Assembly: GCA_964346985.1 (NCBI GenBank)
Contig: CAYFWW010000005.1
Location: 17,206 to 81,205 of the forward strand
From: an uncultured Actinomycetota bacterium
GTDB lineage: Bacteria; Actinomycetota; Aquicultoria; CAYFWW01
Length of the DNA stretch: 64,000 bases
Reading direction: 5' to 3'
The notes below the pieces were generated by a model, which was not told where the DNA came from, ran no database searches, and saw only the letters and a program-made list of their open reading frames with translations. Position numbers and translations under genes: made by a program. Numbering within the stretch: position 1 is the stretch's first letter; each line of letters starts with the position of its first letter. Below are positions 57,786 through 64,000 of this stretch, in pieces.

Positions 57786-59492
57786 TTGCCTGAAGAGAAT
57801 AATATTGATATAGAAAAGAAAAAAGAACTTATAAAAAATAGCAGGATGGGTAAGTTATTGCTTGATAAAGGTTTAGTGAATGAAGAACAGCTTCTCGAAG
57901 CTTTTGATTCCTCGGGTGTAAAATCTTTAGCTCATAGGCTAGTTGAGTTAAAAATGGTAAGTGAAGAAGATATTTATAAAGCTATTGCTGAGAAGATGAA
58001 TCTCGAATATATTGATTTAAATGAAAATGAGATAGACCCTAATGCGGCGACGATTATATCTGAGGAAATCGCTCGTAAGTATAATTTAATTCCTGTCAAG
58101 TTTGAGGATGAAACGATGATAGTTGCTATGGCCGATCCAGCAAATGTGCTGGCAATCGATGATTTAAGAGTTATGACTGGTTATGACATAAAACCGGTTG
58201 TTTCAAGTAGTTCAATTATAGACCATGCTATTGATGAGTATTGCGGAATGGACCAGACAGTTGAACAAATGGTCGAAGGCCTAGATGAATTTGAAGTTTC
58301 AGAAGCGCTTGAAGAAGAAGAGGCAGAAAGTGAAAATGCCCCAGTTGTAAAATTAGTTAACTTGATTATCTCGGAGTCTGTGAGAACAAGAGCAAACGAC
58401 GTTCATATTGAACCTCAGGAGAAAGATGTCAGAATTCGTTTTAGGATTGACGGTGTTTTACACGAAGTAATGCGTTCACCAAAAAAAGTTCAAAACGGAG
58501 TAATTTCAAGAATTAAAATTCTTTCAAAATTGGATATTGCTGAAAAAAGGTTACCACAAGACGGCAGGTTCGGATTGGTAATTGATGGTAAAGCAATAGA
58601 TTTTCGAGTTGCAACATTACCAACAATCCACGGGGAAAAAATTGTTTTAAGATTACTGGAGAAAGAAAGTATACTAATATCTCTTGAAGACCTTGGGCTT
58701 GAACAAGACAGCCTAGAAATTTTTTCAAAATCATTTAATAAACCATATGGAGCAATTATGGTTACAGGACCAACAGGATGTGGCAAAACTACTACTCTAT
58801 ATGCGGTTTTAAATGTCATTAATTCTATAGAAAAGAATATAATTACTGTTGAAGATCCAGTTGAATACAGGCTTGCAGGCTGTAATCAGGTTCAAGTAAG
58901 TGAAAAAGCAGGAATGACATTTGCTGCCGGTTTAAGGTCTATTTTAAGAAATGATCCTGATATAGTAATGATAGGAGAGATCAGAGATAAGGAAACAGCT
59001 CAGATTTCTATTGAATCAGCTTTAACCGGCCATTTAGTATTGTCAACTCTACATACAAACGACTCAGCGTCAACTTTAACCCGCCTGACCGAAATGGGGA
59101 TTGAACCATTTTTAACTGCTTCAGCTGTTGATAGTGTTTTAGCTCAAAGGTTGGCCAGAAGGTTATGTCCAGAATGCAAAAAAGAATATAATCCTGAAAA
59201 AGATATTATAGAAAAATATAACCTTCCTAAAAAGAAAGGTAAACCGCCAACTTTATTTAAGGCAGAGGGTTGTAGAGCCTGCAATGATACTGGATATAAA
59301 GGCCGACTGGGATTATTTGAGCTCCTTTTAGTAAGTGAGGAGATAGAAAAACTATGTGTTGACAGAGCAACAGGTGACGATATCTCAAATCAAGCAATAA
59401 AAGAAGGCATGAGAACCCTTAGGGAAGATGGAATTCTTAAAGCATTAAAAGGACATACATCAATTGAAGAAATATTAAGAGTAACTGTTTAA
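57786..59492 (+). CDS. pilB: Type IV pilus assembly ATPase PilB / GspE family, paralogue 1; TTG start
   Basis: 568 aa. GspE N-terminal domains, Walker A GPTGCGKTT, Asp and His boxes, and a tetracysteine motif CPECKK…CRACNDTGYKGR. Confidence 0.85.
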   Translation: MPEENNIDIEKKKELIKNSRMGKLLLDKGLVNEEQLLEAFDSSGVKSLAHRLVELKMVSEEDIYKAIAEKMNLEYIDLNENEIDPNAATIISEEIARKYNLIPVKFEDETMIVAMADPANVLAIDDLRVMTGYDIKPVVSSSSIIDHAIDEYCGMDQTVEQMVEGLDEFEVSEALEEEEAESENAPVVKLVNLIISESVRTRANDVHIEPQEKDVRIRFRIDGVLHEVMRSPKKVQNGVISRIKILSKLDIAEKRLPQDGRFGLVIDGKAIDFRVATLPTIHGEKIVLRLLEKESILISLEDLGLEQDSLEIFSKSFNKPYGAIMVTGPTGCGKTTTLYAVLNVINSIEKNIITVEDPVEYRLAGCNQVQVSEKAGMTFAAGLRSILRNDPDIVMIGEIRDKETAQISIESALTGHLVLSTLHTNDSASTLTRLTEMGIEPFLTASAVDSVLAQRLARRLCPECKKEYNPEKDIIEKYNLPKKKGKPPTLFKAEGCRACNDTGYKGRLGLFELLLVSEEIEKLCVDRATGDDISNQAIKEGMRTLREDGILKALKGHTSIEEILRVTV

Positions 59493-59496
59493 TTCA

Positions 59497-59525
59497 TTGA
59501 CTAAATAGGTTATTGTTTTGATAAT
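59497..59525 (+). promoter_or_regulatory. Sigma-A-type promoter TTGACT-17-GATAAT upstream of the roadblock/GTPase unit
   Basis: TTGACT at 59497-59502, a 17-nt spacer, GATAAT at 59520-59525. Followed by an AAAGGAGG ribosome-binding site and the ATG at 59566. Confidence 0.45.
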
Positions 59526-59565
59526 AAACAGAAATCTTTGATAGATCGTTAAAAGGAGGAAAAGA

Positions 59566-59985
59566 ATGGAAGACTATGAAAATATAGATTCATCTTCCAA
59601 GGGCGATAGGGTAAGACATCAAAGCAGGGCAGAAAAGCTAACAACTGCCTTAGGTGATTTACTTCAGAATTCTCCTGAAATAGAAGCGGCTGCCCTGGTT
59701 AGCCCTGATGGACTTATGGTAGCTTCGGCACTCCCAAGTCATATGCAAGAAGAAAGAGTTGCTGCTATGTCTGCAGCTATACTAAGTCTTGGAGATAGAA
59801 CAGCAAATGAACTGGGGAGGGGGAAACTTACTCAAGTATTTGTCGAGGGTGAAAACGGATTCGTTTTTTTAATGTCCTCAGGACCTAATGCTGTTTTAAC
59901 AGCACTTGCAGGTAAAGGTGCAAAGTTAGGTTTAATATTTTATGACATGAAACATGCAGCAAAGGAGATATCCGAAATTTTATAA
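59566..59985 (+). CDS. Roadblock/LC7 domain protein (MglB-like GTPase regulator)
   Basis: 139 aa. …EIEAAALVSPDGLMVASALP…ERVAAMSAAILSLG…GKLTQVFVEGENGFVFLMSSGPNAVLTALAG… matches the roadblock/LC7 fold pattern of MglB/CvnB. Confidence 0.75.
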   Translation: MEDYENIDSSSKGDRVRHQSRAEKLTTALGDLLQNSPEIEAAALVSPDGLMVASALPSHMQEERVAAMSAAILSLGDRTANELGRGKLTQVFVEGENGFVFLMSSGPNAVLTALAGKGAKLGLIFYDMKHAAKEISEIL

Positions 59986-59999
59986 TTCGATGGTAACAA

Positions 60000-61616
60000 A
60001 TGGCATTAGCTGGTAATTTAAGAGACTTTAGTCTCCCGGATATATTTCAATTAATAAGTTTAAGTAAAAAAACTGGCTCTCTGGATATTGTACGTGATGA
60101 TACAGAGGGGCATGTTTATTTTAAAGATGGTGAAGTTTTTTTTGCCATATCAAACTGGCATCAAGAGTCTCTTGGTAAAAGACTTGTTAACTCAGAAAAA
60201 ATTACCAATGAACAACTAAAAAAATCAGTAAAACAACAAAAAGAAGAGAAACAAAAACGGCGTCTTGGACAGATTCTAATCGAAAAGAAATACATAACTG
60301 AAAATGTGTTGTCAACATTTGTGCAAGAACAGATTCAAGATACAATTTTTGATCTATTCAGATGGCAAGAGGGAGAATTTAACTTTAGAGCTGGAGAAAT
60401 TCCTTCTGAGGAAGACATCGGCCTTTCTGTTTCAGTTGAAAATATTATCATGGAAGGCGCTCGCCGTCTTGAAGAATGGAATAGAATAGTTCAAAAAATT
60501 CATTCATTAGAAATGGTTTTTAATATGGCTTCAGGCCCAGGAGAAGGGACTTTTGAGATTAGCCTGAAACCAATGGAATGGAAAATAATCTGTCTTCTTG
60601 ATGGACAAAAAACAATCAAGGATTTAATTGATATTACTGGTCTTAACGACTTTGAAATTTGCCGAATTATTTATGGTATGTATTCAGCCGGCTTACTTGA
60701 AGAGGCAGAAGAAATTGAAGAGATGGAAACCGCTGAGGAAGAAGTTGAAACAGCTGAAGAAGAGATAGAAGCAGAGCAAGGTGAAGTTGAAGAAGAGGCA
60801 GAAGAAGTACTTGAAACTGAAGAAGATACTGAAAAGATAATTAAAATTGAAGAAGAAGATAAATATTCTATCGAATCCTTAGAAAAGAGATCTCAGGAAC
60901 TTTTAGAAAAACAAGAGACTAAGGAAGAACCAACTCCAGAAATAGCTAAAGCAAAGATTAAAAAAGAAGAAAGTACGAAAAGTATAAAAACTGAGGATAA
61001 ATCTAGACAACAGCAGATTAAGAAATTGCTAAAAGATCTAACCTCAAAAGGCCTTGAAGTAGATTCTGATTTTACAGAAGGGTTGGTAGACGAAGAGGAT
61101 AAGAAAGAAATTTATGAAAAGAAGAAACCTAAGAAAGAAAAGAAAGTTGAAGTTATTGATGGAAAAGAACAAATAGACTCAATAAAAATTGAAGATGATG
61201 AAGCCGTAGAATTAGCTGAAGAGCATGAGGAAAAAGAGGAGATAAAAATTGAGCTTGAAGAAGAACCTATCAAGGAAGAGCCTTCAATACCAAAGATTGG
61301 AAAGATAGATAAAGAAGAAAAAGAGCCGGTTAAAAAAGAAGAGAAAAAAGAAGAAGGACATAAGAAAAAAAAGATTACCGAGCAATCTCTGAAAGATGCC
61401 AAGCGTTTTCCTGCTGGTGTGAGATTTGCTTTAACCGAAGAACTTACATCATTGACAGGTGCTAAAAAATCTGAAGCTAAACAAAAGAAAAAACAGACTA
61501 TTGATGATAAAAAGAAAGAAAAGAGCGAAACAAAAGGGGGAAAACCAAAGGCTGAAAAGGGAGATATAACAAAGGATACTGTCTTAAGGATTATTAATAG
61601 TGTCAAAAAAATATAA
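60000..61616 (+). CDS. PATAN/DUF4388-domain protein with an approximately 300-aa Glu/Lys-rich low-complexity C-terminal region
   Basis: N-terminal GNLRDFSLPDIFQLISLSKKTGSL… is the DUF4388 (PatA-like N-terminal) signature. Residues from about 230 onward are dominated by E and K (EEAEEIEEMETAEEEVETAEEEIEAEQGEVEEEAEE…KKEEKKEEGHKKKK). Confidence 0.6.
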   Translation: MALAGNLRDFSLPDIFQLISLSKKTGSLDIVRDDTEGHVYFKDGEVFFAISNWHQESLGKRLVNSEKITNEQLKKSVKQQKEEKQKRRLGQILIEKKYITENVLSTFVQEQIQDTIFDLFRWQEGEFNFRAGEIPSEEDIGLSVSVENIIMEGARRLEEWNRIVQKIHSLEMVFNMASGPGEGTFEISLKPMEWKIICLLDGQKTIKDLIDITGLNDFEICRIIYGMYSAGLLEEAEEIEEMETAEEEVETAEEEIEAEQGEVEEEAEEVLETEEDTEKIIKIEEEDKYSIESLEKRSQELLEKQETKEEPTPEIAKAKIKKEESTKSIKTEDKSRQQQIKKLLKDLTSKGLEVDSDFTEGLVDEEDKKEIYEKKKPKKEKKVEVIDGKEQIDSIKIEDDEAVELAEEHEEKEEIKIELEEEPIKEEPSIPKIGKIDKEEKEPVKKEEKKEEGHKKKKITEQSLKDAKRFPAGVRFALTEELTSLTGAKKSEAKQKKKQTIDDKKKEKSETKGGKPKAEKGDITKDTVLRIINSVKKI

Positions 61617-61623
61617 GGTAACT

Positions 61624-62178
61624 ATGCAGACTGTAAAGATACTTATTACTGGACCATTTAACGCAGGAAAGACAACATTTATAAAGACTATAAGTGAAAT
61701 TTCAGTTGTTTCCACTGAGAGGGATATTACTGACCATACCAAATCATTGAAGCCAGAAACTACTGTTGCAATGGATTTTGGAAAGATTACAATAGATGAA
61801 AAATTAGCTCTATATTTATTCGGTACCCCTGGGCAGGAAAGATTTGACTTTATGTGGGAAACATTATCTGAAGGGATGCTAGGGTATATCTTAATGATAG
61901 ATGTTTCACGAAAAGAATCTATTAAAGAAGCTAAAACAATACTGGAATTCTTTAAAAAACTATCTGATGTACCATACATTATTGCTCTAAATAAAAAAGA
62001 TATGGCTGATGGATCTATCAATGAGGAAATATTAAGAAAGAAGCTAACTGTTGAACAGAAAATCCCTGTTGTTGAATGCAATTCTTTTGAAAAGGAAAAT
62101 GTTAAAGATGCTTTACTTTGCCTTTTATATTTAATCCTCGATCAAACTGATGAAAAGGAGAAATTAAAGAAACGGTAA
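61624..62178 (+). CDS. MglA-like small Ras-family GTPase
   Basis: About 185 aa. P-loop ILITGPFNAGKTTF, STERD switch-I-like segment, GTPGQ in place of DxxG, NKKD (NKxD). Overall pattern parallels M. xanthus MglA (…GPGLCGKTT…STETDRT…TVPGQ…NKRD). The ATG at 61624 is preferred over an in-frame upstream ATG that overlaps the previous gene. Confidence 0.75.
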   Translation: MQTVKILITGPFNAGKTTFIKTISEISVVSTERDITDHTKSLKPETTVAMDFGKITIDEKLALYLFGTPGQERFDFMWETLSEGMLGYILMIDVSRKESIKEAKTILEFFKKLSDVPYIIALNKKDMADGSINEEILRKKLTVEQKIPVVECNSFEKENVKDALLCLLYLILDQTDEKEKLKKR

Positions 62179-62182
62179 TATT

Positions 62183-62491
62183 ATGCAGGATATTCTGATA
62201 TTTAAATATTTTCTATTATTTTCTTTAATTATAGTAATCGTTTTTTTTATCACTTTTATTATATATCGGCGCAGAAAAAGAGCTAAGAAGAAACAACGCC
62301 CGGTAGAATTATATTTTAGTGATGGTTCAATGATTAAGATTGAACCTGGTACTAAACAGTATTTGACTTATAAAGCACTAGCTAATCATATGTTTAGTGG
62401 ACCTGATATAAAAGATATGCAATCTCGTAGGATAATACGCCGCTATCATAATAAGCATTTCGAGATTTTAAAAAAATCTTATCCTTCCTAA
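62183..62491 (+). CDS. Hypothetical small membrane-anchored protein with a polybasic juxtamembrane segment
   Basis: 102 aa. N-terminal TM helix, then RRRKRAKKKQR, then a roughly 60-aa soluble domain. Last gene before the terminator. Confidence 0.4.
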   Translation: MQDILIFKYFLLFSLIIVIVFFITFIIYRRRKRAKKKQRPVELYFSDGSMIKIEPGTKQYLTYKALANHMFSGPDIKDMQSRRIIRRYHNKHFEILKKSYPS

Positions 62492-62535: not shown

Positions 62536-62595
62536 CAAAAATGCCGATGTGTTAAATGAAAAAAATCTTTATAAGTGAGGTTTTTAATTTGACTG

Positions 62596-64000
62596 CTGCT
62601 GGTCAGAGTTTCGGTGAAATACTTCTGGAATCTAAAGTAATTGACCAAGATCAACTTGTAAGTGCATTAGAAGAACAGCAGGCAACTGGAAAACCCTTCA
62701 GTCAAGTAATTGTTGAAAAAGGTTATGCGACTCAAGAAGATATTCTTTCCAAGTTAGCCGAACTTCTTGGTTTGCCATATGTTAATTTAAATGAATATGA
62801 AATAAATGTCAGCGCTGTGGCTTTAGTCCCTGATAATTTAGCTCGTAAATATATAGCTATACCAATAGATTTCGATAATGAAAGATTAGTAGTAGCTATG
62901 GCCGATCCTGAAAATATGATGGCAATCGACGACCTAAGAATTGTTACCGGTTATGACATTAAATCAGTCGTGGCAACAAAAGACGGGATATTGAGTGCTA
63001 TCGAGAGATATTGTAAGTCAGAGTCAATGGAAGATGCTTTCCAAGACTTAGATGTTGGTGAAGAAGAAAATGAACTGACCAAGCTTCATGAAATTTCTGA
63101 AGATGCACCAATAGTAAAACTGGCTAATTTAATAATTACCAGAGCAGTTAAAGAAGGAGCTTCAGATATTCATATTGAACCACAGGAAAAAGATATCAGA
63201 GTAAGATACAGGATAGATGGTGTTCTACACGAAGTTATGAAGTCGCCGAAAAAGATTCAACCAGCCCTTCTGTCTAGGTTTAAAATAATTGCAAGCTTAG
63301 ATATTGCTGAAAAAAGAAAACCTCAGGATGGTCACTGCGGTTTAAATATAGCTGGAAAAGTTGTTGATTTTCGTGTGGCGACATTACCGACTGTATATGG
63401 GGAAAGGATAGTCCTTAGAATCTTAGAAAAAGAAAGTATCTTACTTGACCTTAATGATTTAGGTTTTTTAAAAGAATCACTAGATAAGTTCAGGAATGCA
63501 TTTATGCAACCCTATGGTGCAATTTTTATTACTGGGCCAACTGGAAGCGGTAAGTCCACCACTCTATATGCAACATTAAATGTTTTAAATACCGAAGATA
63601 AAAACATAGTAACAATTGAAGACCCAGTTGAATACCGCTTACCTGGAATAAACCAAGTACAAATTAATGCCAGGGCTGGCCTATCTTTCTCTAGAGGATT
63701 ACGGTCTATTCTACGCGCGTCTCCTGATATTGTAATGGTAGGGGAGATAAGAGATCATGAAACTGCACAAATTGCTATAGAAGCTGCTTTAACAGGTCAT
63801 TTGGTTTTTTCCACCTTACATACAAATGATGCTCCGGGAGCTATAACCAGACTAACTGAAATGGGTATCGAACCATTTTTAACAGCTTCAGCCCTATCCT
63901 GTATTCAAGCACAAAGGTTAGCTAGAAAACTGTGTTCAGATTGCAAAGAACCTTTCAAACCTACTTCTAAGGTTATTAAAGAGTACGGATTAAAGATAAA
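62596..64000 (+). CDS. Type IV pilus assembly ATPase PilB / GspE family, paralogue 2 (3'-truncated by the window edge)
   Basis: Same domain order as paralogue 1: N-terminal GspE_N (…MADPENMMAIDDLRIVTGYDIK…), Walker A GPTGSGKST, and the start of a Cys motif (CSDCKE). TTG at 62596 with a GAGGT ribosome-binding site; an ATG at 62556 is the alternative start. The frame stays open to position 64000. Confidence 0.8.

What the first reader, a model, noticed from the sequence alone, without database searches (positions are those of the whole stretch)
60000..61616. PATAN/DUF4388 protein with a roughly 300-residue Glu/Lys-rich tail: a possible RomR-like scaffold for the GTPase
The N-terminal ~230 aa carry the DUF4388/PatA-N-terminal signature (GNLRDFSLPDIFQLIS…KTGSL). 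The rest is extreme low-complexity sequence. An acidic stretch (EEAEEIEEMETAEEEVETAEEEIEAEQGEVEEEAEE) is followed by alternating K/E blocks and a Lys-rich end.

In M. xanthus the MglA regulator RomR has a comparable layout: a folded REC-type N-domain plus a long Glu-rich C-terminal region needed for polar targeting and GEF-complex formation. The sequence similarity is not established, but the architectural parallel suggests this protein is the landmark or GEF-scaffold component of the module. At DNA level the GAA/AAG-rich region produces spurious long antisense ORFs.
Basis: partly seen in the sequence, partly recalled or inferred. Interest (0 to 1): 0.6.

Follow-up and report, generated by a model that had tools for sequence, protein, structure and literature searches.

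The report
Long-tailed PATAN adaptor in pilus cluster
This gene encodes a real, widespread but unstudied regulator: a PATAN domain with a built-in c-di-GMP-type motif, then a long acidic floppy tail ending in a conserved helix. It sits with a small GTPase inside a type IV pilus gene cluster and probably links that switch to the pilus motor.

Summary
ORF 60000-61616 encodes 538 aa with a strong DUF4388/PATAN match (E 7e-38) and a 303-residue tail that is 41-55% Glu+Lys, against 15% elsewhere in the window.

The tail is neither an artefact nor featureless. All complete syntenic orthologues (aroE-pilB-roadblock-PATAN-GTPase-pilB2-pilT-pilC-pilin) carry tails of 207-875 aa. Net acidity is conserved. 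Lysine simply tracks low GC (r = -0.94).

Conserved islands are embedded in the tail. The clearest are an 'ELT(A/S)LTG' motif and a terminal amphipathic helix, which together form a C-terminal module of roughly constant length (~60 aa).

That helix co-occurs with a GTPase gene immediately downstream: 40/40 loci with the motif against 1/26 without. Tail-less paralogues sit in Che-type loci without a GTPase.

- Residues 167-235 are a winged helix.

The RomR comparison holds as an architectural analogy only: there is no REC domain, no Pro-rich linker and no detectable homology.

Best reading: an adaptor or effector coupling an MglA-like GTPase switch, and possibly c-di-GMP, to PilB.

The parts
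60000..61616 (+). Gene for the 538-aa PATAN protein. Order of parts: PATAN core, MshEN-type insert, winged helix, acidic disordered tail, C-terminal module.
   Evidence: ORF. Pfam DUF4388 E 7e-38. An identical 538-aa protein is in the public collection, from one NCBI contig of 149 kb.
60000..60155 (+). PATAN core, first part (residues 1-52): beta1, alpha1, beta2-beta4.
   Evidence: AF2 pLDDT >90; secondary structure E4-6, H12-22, E26-32, E35-42, E45-51. G5, L7, L18, K24, G26, L28, F41, G44 and A49 are nearly invariant.
60165..60338 (+). Inserted four-helix MshEN-type (c-di-GMP-type) tandem motif, residues 56-113. Motif 1 is SLGKRLVNSEKITNEQLKKSVKQQ; motif 2 is RLGQILIEKKYITENVLSTFVQEQ.
60339..60497 (+). 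PATAN core, second part (residues 114-166): beta5 and a long helix.
   Evidence: Second Pfam stretch, residues 85-161 matching profile positions 48-122. AF2 E126-131, H146-166.
60498..60704 (+). Winged-helix subdomain (residues 167-235). It is acidic, so probably a protein-binding module rather than a DNA-binding one.
60705..61403 (+). Acidic, Glu/Lys-rich, mostly disordered tail (residues 236-468) with embedded helical islands at about 240-271, 287-305 and 328-349.
   Evidence: AF2 pLDDT <50 over 273-280, 307-327 and 376-460; helices at pLDDT 62-88. Islands align to conserved orthologue islands 'DMAVFEQMMGAVL' and 'DLRALGLGELP'. Composition.
61428..61463 (+). Conserved motif ALTEELTSLTGA (residues 477-488). 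The family consensus is GLGDELTALTGG.
   Evidence: Residue-class conservation 0.86 across 51 tails. E, L and T are invariant in alignment A3.
61542..61613 (+). C-terminal amphipathic helix motif (residues 515-538, ...GDITKDTVLRIINSVKKI-COOH). The family consensus is LHRDQxVDRxLLxKIIEGIEKL-COOH.
   Evidence: AF2 helix 525-537 at pLDDT 85-92 inside an otherwise disordered tail. Conserved in orthologues. Present in 109 of the 143 best family representatives, against 0.9% of other ORF C-termini.
59566..59985 (+). Roadblock/LC7 protein (139 aa), the likely GTPase regulator of the module.
   Evidence: Pfam Robl_LC7 E 1.7e-19. PDB matches: 7f8m E 3e-27, CvnB5 3leq E 1e-12, MglB E 8e-3. Strong RBS and a promoter-like site at 59497-59525.
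61624..62178 (+). Small Ras-superfamily GTPase. The longest ORF starts at GTG 61600; ATG 61624 is the likely start.
   Evidence: Pfam ATP_bind_1, Arf and Ras. 27% identity to MglA, G3 motif FGTPGQ, no Arg at the MglA arginine-finger position. Start site.
62183..62491 (+). Small single-pass membrane protein (102 aa), conserved after the GTPase in the closest syntenic relative.
   Evidence: ORF. The L081 103-aa homologue shares 'VELxFxDGS'.
57786..59492 (+). PilB-type pilus extension ATPase 1 (MshEN + T2SSE).
   Evidence: Pfam and NCBIfam. Its c-di-GMP motif scores 32.8 bits, below the cut-off of 38.
62556..64000 (+). PilB-type ATPase 2. It is partial and runs off the end of the window.
   Evidence: TIGR02538 E 9e-167; c-di-GMP motif 47.7 bits, above the cut-off. 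In L081 it is followed by pilT, pilC, a pilin gene and a prepilin peptidase gene.

Best explanation
The protein is the adaptor or effector subunit of a three-part switch (roadblock protein, PATAN protein, small MglA/CvnD-like GTPase) encoded between two pilB genes at the head of a type IV pilus cluster.

Shown here:
- A PATAN core carries an inserted MshEN-type four-helix bundle.
- A winged helix follows it.
- A net-acidic disordered tail of variable length follows that.
- The tail ends in a conserved module of roughly constant length (~60 aa): the 'ELTxLTG' motif plus a terminal amphipathic helix.
- That module is found only where a GTPase gene follows immediately.

Inferred mechanism:
- The folded N-terminal part engages the PilB/PilC pilus motor, as cyanobacterial PATAN domains do.
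- The flexible acidic tail acts as a tether. Its terminal helix and upstream islands bind the GTPase, and possibly its roadblock partner, in a nucleotide-dependent way.
- The GTP/GDP state, set by the roadblock GAP, would then gate or localise PATAN-PilB engagement and so pilus extension.
- The MshEN-type insert either senses c-di-GMP or mimics and competes with the PilB N-terminus.
For: Domain calls:
- Pfam DUF4388 E 7e-38.
- NCBIfam c-di-GMP motif above cut-off.

Synteny: aroE-pilB-robl-PATAN-GTPase-(TM)-pilB2-pilT-pilC-pilin occurs in the window, in L081 and in 49 Actinomycetota loci.

Tail conservation:
- Tails are kept in all syntenic orthologues whose C-terminus is in the contig (207-875 aa), and all 45 complete tails analysed (including L081 and L083-L085) are net acidic, NCPR -0.08 to -0.28.
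- Conserved islands and a C-terminal module of roughly constant length (57-63 aa, up to 69) are present.
- AF2 gives pLDDT 85-92 for the terminal helix in a disordered context.

Co-occurrence of the terminal motif with a GTPase gene immediately downstream:
- 40 loci with both, 0 with the motif only, 25 with neither, and 1 likely frameshifted locus.
- The pattern recurs in several distinct locus contexts. Chloroflexia have no roadblock or pilB nearby. Two PilB-flanked loci (L083, L085) have no adjacent roadblock gene. One Che-type locus has gained a GTPase together with a tailed PATAN, while the same locus type without a GTPase has a tail-less PATAN.

Literature:
- The PATAN domain binds PilB1 and PilC and is the output domain (bioRxiv 10.1101/2021.06.11.447907; PMC11181946).
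- MglA/MglB homologues are often encoded next to PATAN genes (PMC4316618).
Against: - No interaction was tested. The tools return no inter-chain or contact information, so which partner the terminal helix binds is inferred from gene co-occurrence alone.
- That co-occurrence is partly phylogenetically non-independent.
- In this protein the turn glycines of both MshEN motifs are replaced (E66, K97) and motif 1 starts with Ser rather than Arg, so c-di-GMP binding may be weak or lost.
- PATAN-PilB binding is known only for cyanobacterial PATAN-REC proteins.
- A profile search with the C-terminal module found only fragments, so it gave no independent clue to the partner.
Confidence: 0.55

Rival explanations
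1. True RomR-like mode. The terminal helix docks on the roadblock dimer rather than on the GTPase. The protein would then be a polar landmark or partitioning factor that positions the roadblock GAP.
For: - RomR has the same layout of folded N-domain, long disordered region and C-terminal helix, and its helix 371-420 binds the roadblock protein MglC at nanomolar affinity (PMC12719032).
- A roadblock gene lies immediately upstream here and in all 49 syntenic loci. Geothermincolia loci have three.
Against: - The terminal helix persists in loci with a GTPase but no adjacent roadblock gene.
- It is absent from a locus with a roadblock gene but no recognisable GTPase.
- There is no REC domain and no detectable RomR homology.
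Confidence: 0.2
2. The main job is c-di-GMP reception. The PATAN protein would be a stand-alone MshEN-type receptor that passes c-di-GMP levels to the pilus ATPases, and the tail would be secondary.
For: - The NCBIfam c-di-GMP motif scores 44.5 bits against a cut-off of 38.
- The fold matches c-di-GMP-bound MshE and PilF domains.
- Motif 2 is invariant across 80 homologues.
- PilB1's own motif is sub-threshold at 32.8 bits.
Against: - The query lacks both turn glycines and the first Arg of motif 1.
- PilB2 keeps a good motif of its own at 47.7 bits.
- No paper in the searchable library shows c-di-GMP binding by a PATAN insert.
- This reading does not explain the conserved tail or its link to the GTPase.
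Confidence: 0.12
3. The tail works mainly through bulk physical properties. It would be a blocky polyampholyte or acidic IDR that drives condensate formation, or acts as an entropic spacer at the pilus base, with no specific partner.
For: - FCR 0.53 with segregated acidic and basic blocks.
- Length varies from 207 to 875 aa with conserved net acidity.
- AF2 predicts disorder.
Against: - Several sequence-specific islands are conserved, and the terminal module keeps a roughly constant length.
- The basic block is specific to low-GC lineages.
Confidence: 0.08
4. It is a DNA-binding transcription regulator acting through its winged helix, or the tail is non-functional low-complexity drift or an assembly artefact.
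For: - A winged-helix fold is present.
- The tail sequence is of low complexity.
Against: - The winged helix is acidic and sits next to a strongly acidic tail.
- The tail is kept in every syntenic orthologue, with conserved motifs.
- There is no DNA tandem repeat of note.
- The reading frame stays open for 303 codons in a 35% GC window and ends in a conserved motif, 8 nt before the next gene.
Confidence: 0.05

Closest known systems
PatA-type PATAN regulators of cyanobacteria (PixG, PixE, LsiR, PatA)
   Same: They share a PATAN (DUF4388) domain with an alpha-helical insertion of two repeated helix pairs. In them the PATAN domain is the output module that binds PilB1 and the PilC N-terminus and controls pilus polarity (10.1101/2021.06.11.447907; PMC11181946). 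The gene here is likewise next to pilB.
   Different: Those proteins carry a C-terminal REC domain and take input from Che-type kinases or photoreceptors. This one has a winged helix, a long acidic disordered tail and a conserved terminal helix, and is paired with a roadblock protein and a small GTPase.
RomR of Myxococcus xanthus (MglA polarity module)
   Same: Both have a folded N-domain, a long disordered region and a C-terminal helix, and both work with a small GTPase and roadblock proteins. RomR's terminal helix binds the roadblock protein MglC (PMC12719032).
   Different: RomR's N-domain is a REC domain and its linker is Pro-rich. No sequence similarity was found. romR is not encoded next to mglA. 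The motif here tracks the GTPase gene rather than the roadblock gene.
Actinobacterial conservon CvnA-CvnB-CvnC-CvnD
   Same: The gene order roadblock (CvnB-like; 3leq E 1e-12), then a winged-helix-containing middle protein, then a small GTPase with ATP_bind_1 and 'GTPGQ' features is the same. The closest relatives are Actinomycetota.
   Different: There is no CvnA histidine kinase; pilB sits upstream instead. The middle protein is a PATAN protein, and similarity of its winged helix to DUF742 is only marginal (2 of 18 members, best E 0.009).
MshEN c-di-GMP-binding domain (V. cholerae MshE, T. thermophilus PilF GSPII-B)
   Different: The motif is inserted into a PATAN domain instead of heading an ATPase. 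The spacer is 7 residues rather than 5, motif 1 lacks the Arg, and both turn glycines are replaced in this protein.
MglA effectors that recruit PilB (SgmX/SopA) and the MglB C-terminal helix
   Same: The proposed logic is the same: a GTPase switch is coupled to PilB recruitment (PMC11580455). MglB also uses a C-terminal helix beyond its folded domain to contact MglA (cited in PMC12719032).
   Different: There is no homology. SgmX is a TPR protein and SopA is specific to Myxococcales. The resemblance is functional and inferred.

Membership tests
PATAN / DUF4388 (PF14332) | Significant match to the Pfam profile above the gathering score | tested here: met
   E 7e-38, 129.8 bits against a cut-off of 25.
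PATAN / DUF4388 (PF14332) | Alpha-helical insertion inside the domain (Makarova et al. 2006) | tested here: met
   The Pfam match is split in two. AF2 places helices 58-120 between beta4 and beta5.
MshEN-type c-di-GMP receptor | Tandem 24-residue motifs scoring above the curated NCBIfam NF053729 cut-off | tested here: met
   44.5 bits against a cut-off of 38, residues 58-111.
MshEN-type c-di-GMP receptor | Key ligand-contact and turn residues (R, L, G ... G ... L ... L ... Q in each motif) | tested here: inconclusive
   Motif 2 keeps R88, L89, G90, L104, V108 and Q111 but has K97 in place of Gly. Motif 1 has S57 in place of Arg and E66 in place of Gly. 54 of 55 orthologues keep the Gly of motif 2.
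MshEN-type c-di-GMP receptor | Four-helix bundle fold of MshEN_N | tested here: met
   [not shown]
MshEN-type c-di-GMP receptor | Binds c-di-GMP | not testable with these tools
   Needs DRaCALA or ITC.
RomR | N-terminal REC (response regulator receiver) domain | tested here: not met
   No Response_reg hit at E <= 0.01; only DUF4388 matches. The AF2 fold is not a (beta-alpha)5 fold.
RomR | Pro-rich linker followed by a Glu-rich C-terminal region | tested here: not met
   9 Pro in 303 tail residues. The Glu-only block is at 236-275, the start of the tail, and the end is Lys-rich.
RomR | C-terminal helix that binds a roadblock protein (MglC) | not testable with these tools
   A conserved terminal helix exists, but its partner is unknown.
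Conservon (CvnABCD) | CvnA-type membrane histidine kinase in the operon | tested here: not met
   The upstream gene is a PilB-type ATPase. No kinase gene is adjacent to the module.
Conservon (CvnABCD) | CvnB-type roadblock protein and CvnD-type GTPase | tested here: met
   Roadblock matches CvnB5 (3leq) at E 1e-12. The GTPase scores 62.8 bits on ATP_bind_1 against a cut-off of 27.
Conservon (CvnABCD) | CvnC (DUF742) middle protein | tested here: inconclusive
   DUF742 is hit by 2 of 18 family winged-helix segments, best E 0.0088, among many generic wHTH hits.
MglA/MglB polarity module (group 1) | MglA-type GTPase with an intrinsic arginine finger, plus an MglB GAP | tested here: not met
   27% identity to MglA, with a gap at the Arg-finger position. 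Roadblock matches MglB only at E 8e-3.

The most novel reading that the evidence does not exclude
Long-tailed PATAN proteins (PATAN with MshEN insert, winged helix, acidic IDR, conserved terminal helix) may form a widespread, undescribed class of small-GTPase effectors. They would integrate an MglA/CvnD-like switch with c-di-GMP and deliver the result directly to the PilB motor. That would be the missing general link between Ras-like GTPases and type IV pilus control outside Myxococcus. The terminal helix would be the nucleotide-state-dependent GTPase-binding element.
Probability: 0.3. Interest if true: 0.7.

Novelty: new variant of a known kind. Interest (0 to 1): 0.5.

Why it matters
Small Ras-like GTPases with roadblock partners are common in bacteria, but how they reach their targets is known in detail almost only for Myxococcus. 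PATAN domains are the one domain shown to touch the pilus motor directly, in cyanobacteria.

This locus joins the two. A PATAN protein is tethered, through a conserved tail module, to a GTPase/roadblock pair inside a pilus operon.

The family is large. 3,388 representative clusters match at E <= 1e-30, and 109 of the best 143 end in the same helix.

It therefore offers a directly testable model for GTPase-controlled, and possibly c-di-GMP-controlled, pilus assembly in Actinomycetota-related anaerobes and beyond. It also gives a clean case of a conserved short-motif module embedded in a compositionally drifting disordered region.

Tried and rejected
- The tail and the C-terminal 78 aa have no Pfam family.
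- A profile search with the C-terminal module (A3) against 5.8 billion proteins returned only 11 short fragments with no other architecture. It gave no clue to the partner, and full-length orthologues were evidently not collected by the word index.
- An exact look-up of the protein's contig failed, although an identical sequence exists in the representative library. The nearest relatives are Coriobacteriia and other Actinomycetota MAGs at <= 64% identity.
- I considered fusing the GTPase or roadblock to the tail module for AF2.
- An assembly artefact or tandem repeat was rejected.
- DNA binding by the winged helix was judged unlikely because the region is acidic.
- No GGDEF or HD-GYP motif was found in the window by regex. 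This is uninformative for the whole genome.
Full report
OBSERVATION

The ORF 60000..61616 (+) exists and encodes 538 aa. Pfam DUF4388/PATAN matches at E 7e-38, 129.8 bits against a cut-off of 25, in two stretches separated by an insertion.

The remaining 303 residues are 25% Glu and 20.5% Lys. Every 100-aa window of the tail holds 41-55% E+K. In 513 windows from the other long ORFs of this window the figure is 15.4 +/- 5.6%, with a maximum of 37%.

The charge is blocky: net -27 over residues 236-300 and +10 over 461-538. At DNA level there are only weak 2-2.5-copy arrays, so nothing points to a repeat-collapse artefact. The S/F-rich antisense ORF 61112..61606 is the expected by-product.

ANATOMY OF THE FOLDED PART

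An AlphaFold2 model built on 64 homologues is very confident over residues 1-235 (pLDDT mostly above 90). A second model of residues 1-167 agrees. Three elements can be told apart.

(ii) A four-helix insertion, residues 56-113.
- It passes NCBIfam's curated 'c-di-GMP motif, MshE-related' model at 44.5 bits against a cut-off of 38.
- It matches the N-terminus of Geobacter PilB and V. cholerae MshE by sequence.
- It consists of two copies of the 24-residue motif defined by Wang et al. (PMC5013675).
- Across 55 orthologues and 25 paralogues the second copy is essentially canonical and invariant (R-L-G..LV..G-YI....L...V..Q). The first copy has P/L/S instead of Arg.
- This particular protein has lost both turn glycines (E66, K97), so its ligand binding is uncertain.
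- This is the 'alpha-helical insertion' of Makarova et al. 2006. I found no paper in the searchable library that tests whether a PATAN insert binds c-di-GMP.

(iii) A winged helix, residues 167-235.
- Pfam hits are weak: TrmB, MarR_2, HTH_47 and HTH_27. DUF742, the CvnC family, is hit by only 2 of 18 members at E >= 0.009.
- The region is acidic, so a protein-binding role is more likely than DNA binding.

GENOMIC SETTING

The gene order in the window is as follows.
- aroE
- PilB-type ATPase (57786-59492)
- roadblock/LC7 (59566-59985)
- PATAN (60000-61616)
- small GTPase (probably from ATG 61624)
- a 102-aa membrane protein (62183-62491)
- a second PilB-type ATPase that runs off the window from 62556

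In the closest syntenic relative, L081, the cluster continues with pilT, pilC, a pilin gene and a prepilin peptidase gene. A promoter-like site and a strong RBS precede the roadblock gene. The downstream genes are separated by 5-14 nt, and no terminator-like site lies on the + strand.

The roadblock protein is closer to CvnB5 of the actinobacterial conservon (E 1e-12) than to MglB (E 8e-3). The GTPase is 27% identical to MglA. Its G3 motif is FGTPGQ, and it has no residue at MglA's arginine-finger position.

IS THE TAIL CONSERVED?

A first protein search suggested that many relatives are only about 250 aa long. Genome context resolved this.
- The 49 loci with the same synteny, from Coriobacteriia and other Actinomycetota MAGs (N-domain <= 64% identical), all encode long proteins. 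The complete ones are 441-762 aa, and the one complete protein from the related Geothermincolia-type loci (three tandem roadblock genes) reaches 1,191 aa.
- The shorter database entries were contig-end fragments.
- The 247-251-aa tail-less proteins are a paralogue in a different locus: PATAN, CheR-TPR, REC, PilB-like ATPase, CheW, CheW, with no roadblock and no GTPase.

In 45 complete tails the net charge is always negative, with NCPR from -0.08 to -0.28. Lysine content follows genomic GC with r = -0.94, and Ala+Pro+Gly with r = +0.92. The conserved property is therefore acidity. The 'K' of the E/K tail reflects this AT-rich genome.

THE TAIL IS BEADS ON A STRING

Aligning 51 tails reveals conserved islands separated by variable spacers.
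- A helix directly after the winged helix.
- 'DMAVFEQMMGAVL' (query about 289-303).
- 'DLRALGLGELP' (query 344-356).
- 'GVISTDAFL' (query 459-470).
- 'GLGDELTALTGG' (query 477-488, ALTEELTSLTGA).
- The extreme C-terminus, 'LHRDQxVDRxLLxKIIEGIEKL' (query 515-538, ending DITKDTVLRIINSVKKI).

The distance from the ELTALTG motif to the C-terminus is nearly constant, at 57-63 residues. It is 66 here and up to 69 in the other low-GC relatives. The tail upstream of it varies several-fold in length.

AF2 predicts helices exactly at these islands. It gives the terminal helix pLDDT 85-92 within an otherwise disordered region where pLDDT is below 50.

WHAT THE TERMINAL HELIX TRACKS

66 genome loci had the PATAN C-terminus and downstream DNA available. 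The terminal pattern (hydrophobic-hydrophobic-x-x-hydrophobic-x-x-hydrophobic at the C-terminus) and a GTPase gene within 600 nt downstream coincide as follows.
- 40 loci have both.
- 0 loci have the motif only.
- 25 loci have neither.
- 1 locus has a GTPase only. It has a PE-repeat tail that looks frameshifted.
- The pattern occurs at 0.9% of other ORF C-termini.

The association recurs in separate contexts.
- A Chloroflexia protein of 272 aa has only the terminal helix and is followed by a GTPase, with no roadblock or pilB nearby.
- Two PilB-flanked loci lack a roadblock gene, and one of them has a degenerate GTPase.
- A Che-type locus contains a GTPase and has a tailed PATAN. The same locus type without a GTPase has the tail-less form.
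- A locus with a roadblock gene but no recognisable GTPase has a tail-less PATAN.

The family is large. A profile search of 1.84 billion representatives gave 31,238 hits at E <= 1e-3 and 3,388 at E <= 1e-30. Of the 143 new proteins among the best 150 hits, the median tail is 342 aa and 109 end in the terminal-helix pattern. One of them is identical to this protein and comes from a single 149-kb NCBI contig.

MECHANISM

Shown: the domain architecture, the synteny within a pilus cluster, conservation of an acidic tail with embedded motifs, and the strict co-occurrence of the terminal module with an adjacent GTPase.

Inferred:
- The folded part contacts the PilB/PilC motor. This rests on cyanobacterial PATAN domains, which bind PilB1 and PilC and suffice as the output (10.1101/2021.06.11.447907; PMC11181946). 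It also rests on both paralogues here sitting next to PilB-type genes.
- The tail tethers this domain to the GTPase through the terminal helix and neighbouring islands.
- The roadblock protein sets the nucleotide state.
- The MshEN-type insert adds c-di-GMP input, or competes with the homologous N-termini of the two PilB proteins. Those N-termini score 32.8 and 47.7 bits on the same motif model.

The main rival is that the helix docks on the roadblock dimer, as RomR's helix does on MglC (PMC12719032). Gene co-occurrence favours the GTPase but cannot exclude this.

COMPARISON WITH KNOWN SYSTEMS AND VERDICT

It is a true PATAN protein. The association of PATAN genes with MglA/MglB homologues has been noted before (Makarova 2006; PMC4316618).

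It is not a RomR family member. There is no REC domain and no Pro-rich linker, and the Glu block is in the wrong place. The architectural analogy is real, however, and recent RomR work sharpens it. The 'GEF scaffold' label is unsupported here and is contested for RomR itself (PMC13408092).

It resembles a conservon in gene order and in the type of roadblock and GTPase. It lacks the kinase, and its link to CvnC is marginal.

The combination of PATAN with an MshEN insert, a winged helix, an acidic IDR and a GTPase-linked terminal module appears to be undescribed. I therefore rate it a new variant of a known kind, of moderate interest. It is a well-defined, testable lead rather than a surprise.

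Noticed in passing
window 57786-59492 and 62556-64000: Two PilB-type ATPase paralogues flank the module. The N-terminal c-di-GMP motif of PilB2 passes the NCBIfam cut-off (47.7 bits) and that of PilB1 does not (32.8 bits). Together with the PATAN insert (44.5 bits), the cluster holds three MshEN-type motifs.
   Followed up: partly
window 62183-62491: A 102-aa single-pass membrane protein follows the GTPase after a 4-nt gap. A 103-aa counterpart in L081 shares 'VELxFxDGS'. A simple motif search found no clear counterpart in the high-GC Actinomycetota loci. It may anchor the module to the membrane.
   Followed up: partly
window 61600-61630: The longest GTPase ORF starts at GTG 61600 and overlaps the PATAN gene. 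Orthologue N-termini (MRSVKIVVTG, LKTVKMVITG) and an AAGG 7 nt upstream point instead to ATG 61624, 8 nt after the PATAN stop.
   Followed up: yes
L056 6001-11755 (also L050-L080): The same Actinomycetota genomes carry a tail-less 248-aa PATAN paralogue in a chemosensory-type locus: PATAN, CheR-TPR, REC, PilB-like ATPase, CheW, CheW. This is reminiscent of cyanobacterial Tax systems, but with PATAN and REC as separate proteins.
   Followed up: partly
L083 7151-7675: In a lineage with no adjacent roadblock gene, the protein after the tailed PATAN is a degenerate GTPase. Its P-loop is GPVRAGTTS (the Lys is lost) and its G3 motif is GTPGE. This suggests a pseudo-GTPase that still partners with the tail.
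   Followed up: no
L063, L071, L072, L076, L077, L079: Geothermincolia-type loci have three tandem roadblock genes before a PATAN protein of up to 1,191 aa. In L079 the module lies upstream of aroE-pilB rather than downstream.
   Followed up: no
P0111-P0113: The top-scoring family representatives are giants of 1,455-1,492 aa with 5-6 separate matches to the profile. They are probably multi-PATAN repeat proteins and end in TPR-like sequences.
   Followed up: no
[not shown]
   Followed up: partly
tails of L001-L049 (alignment, columns 993-1010): One conserved island in the Actinomycetota tails, 'DLDDLLRSLG', resembles (from memory) the CheY-binding C-terminal peptide of CheZ (…VDDLLDSLGF). It is not clearly present in the window protein.
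   Followed up: no
window 59497-59565: A promoter-like site TTGACT-17-GATAAT and a strong AAAGGAGG ribosome-binding site lie in the 73-nt gap after pilB1. The roadblock-PATAN-GTPase genes may therefore have their own transcription start. This is a consensus match only.
   Followed up: no
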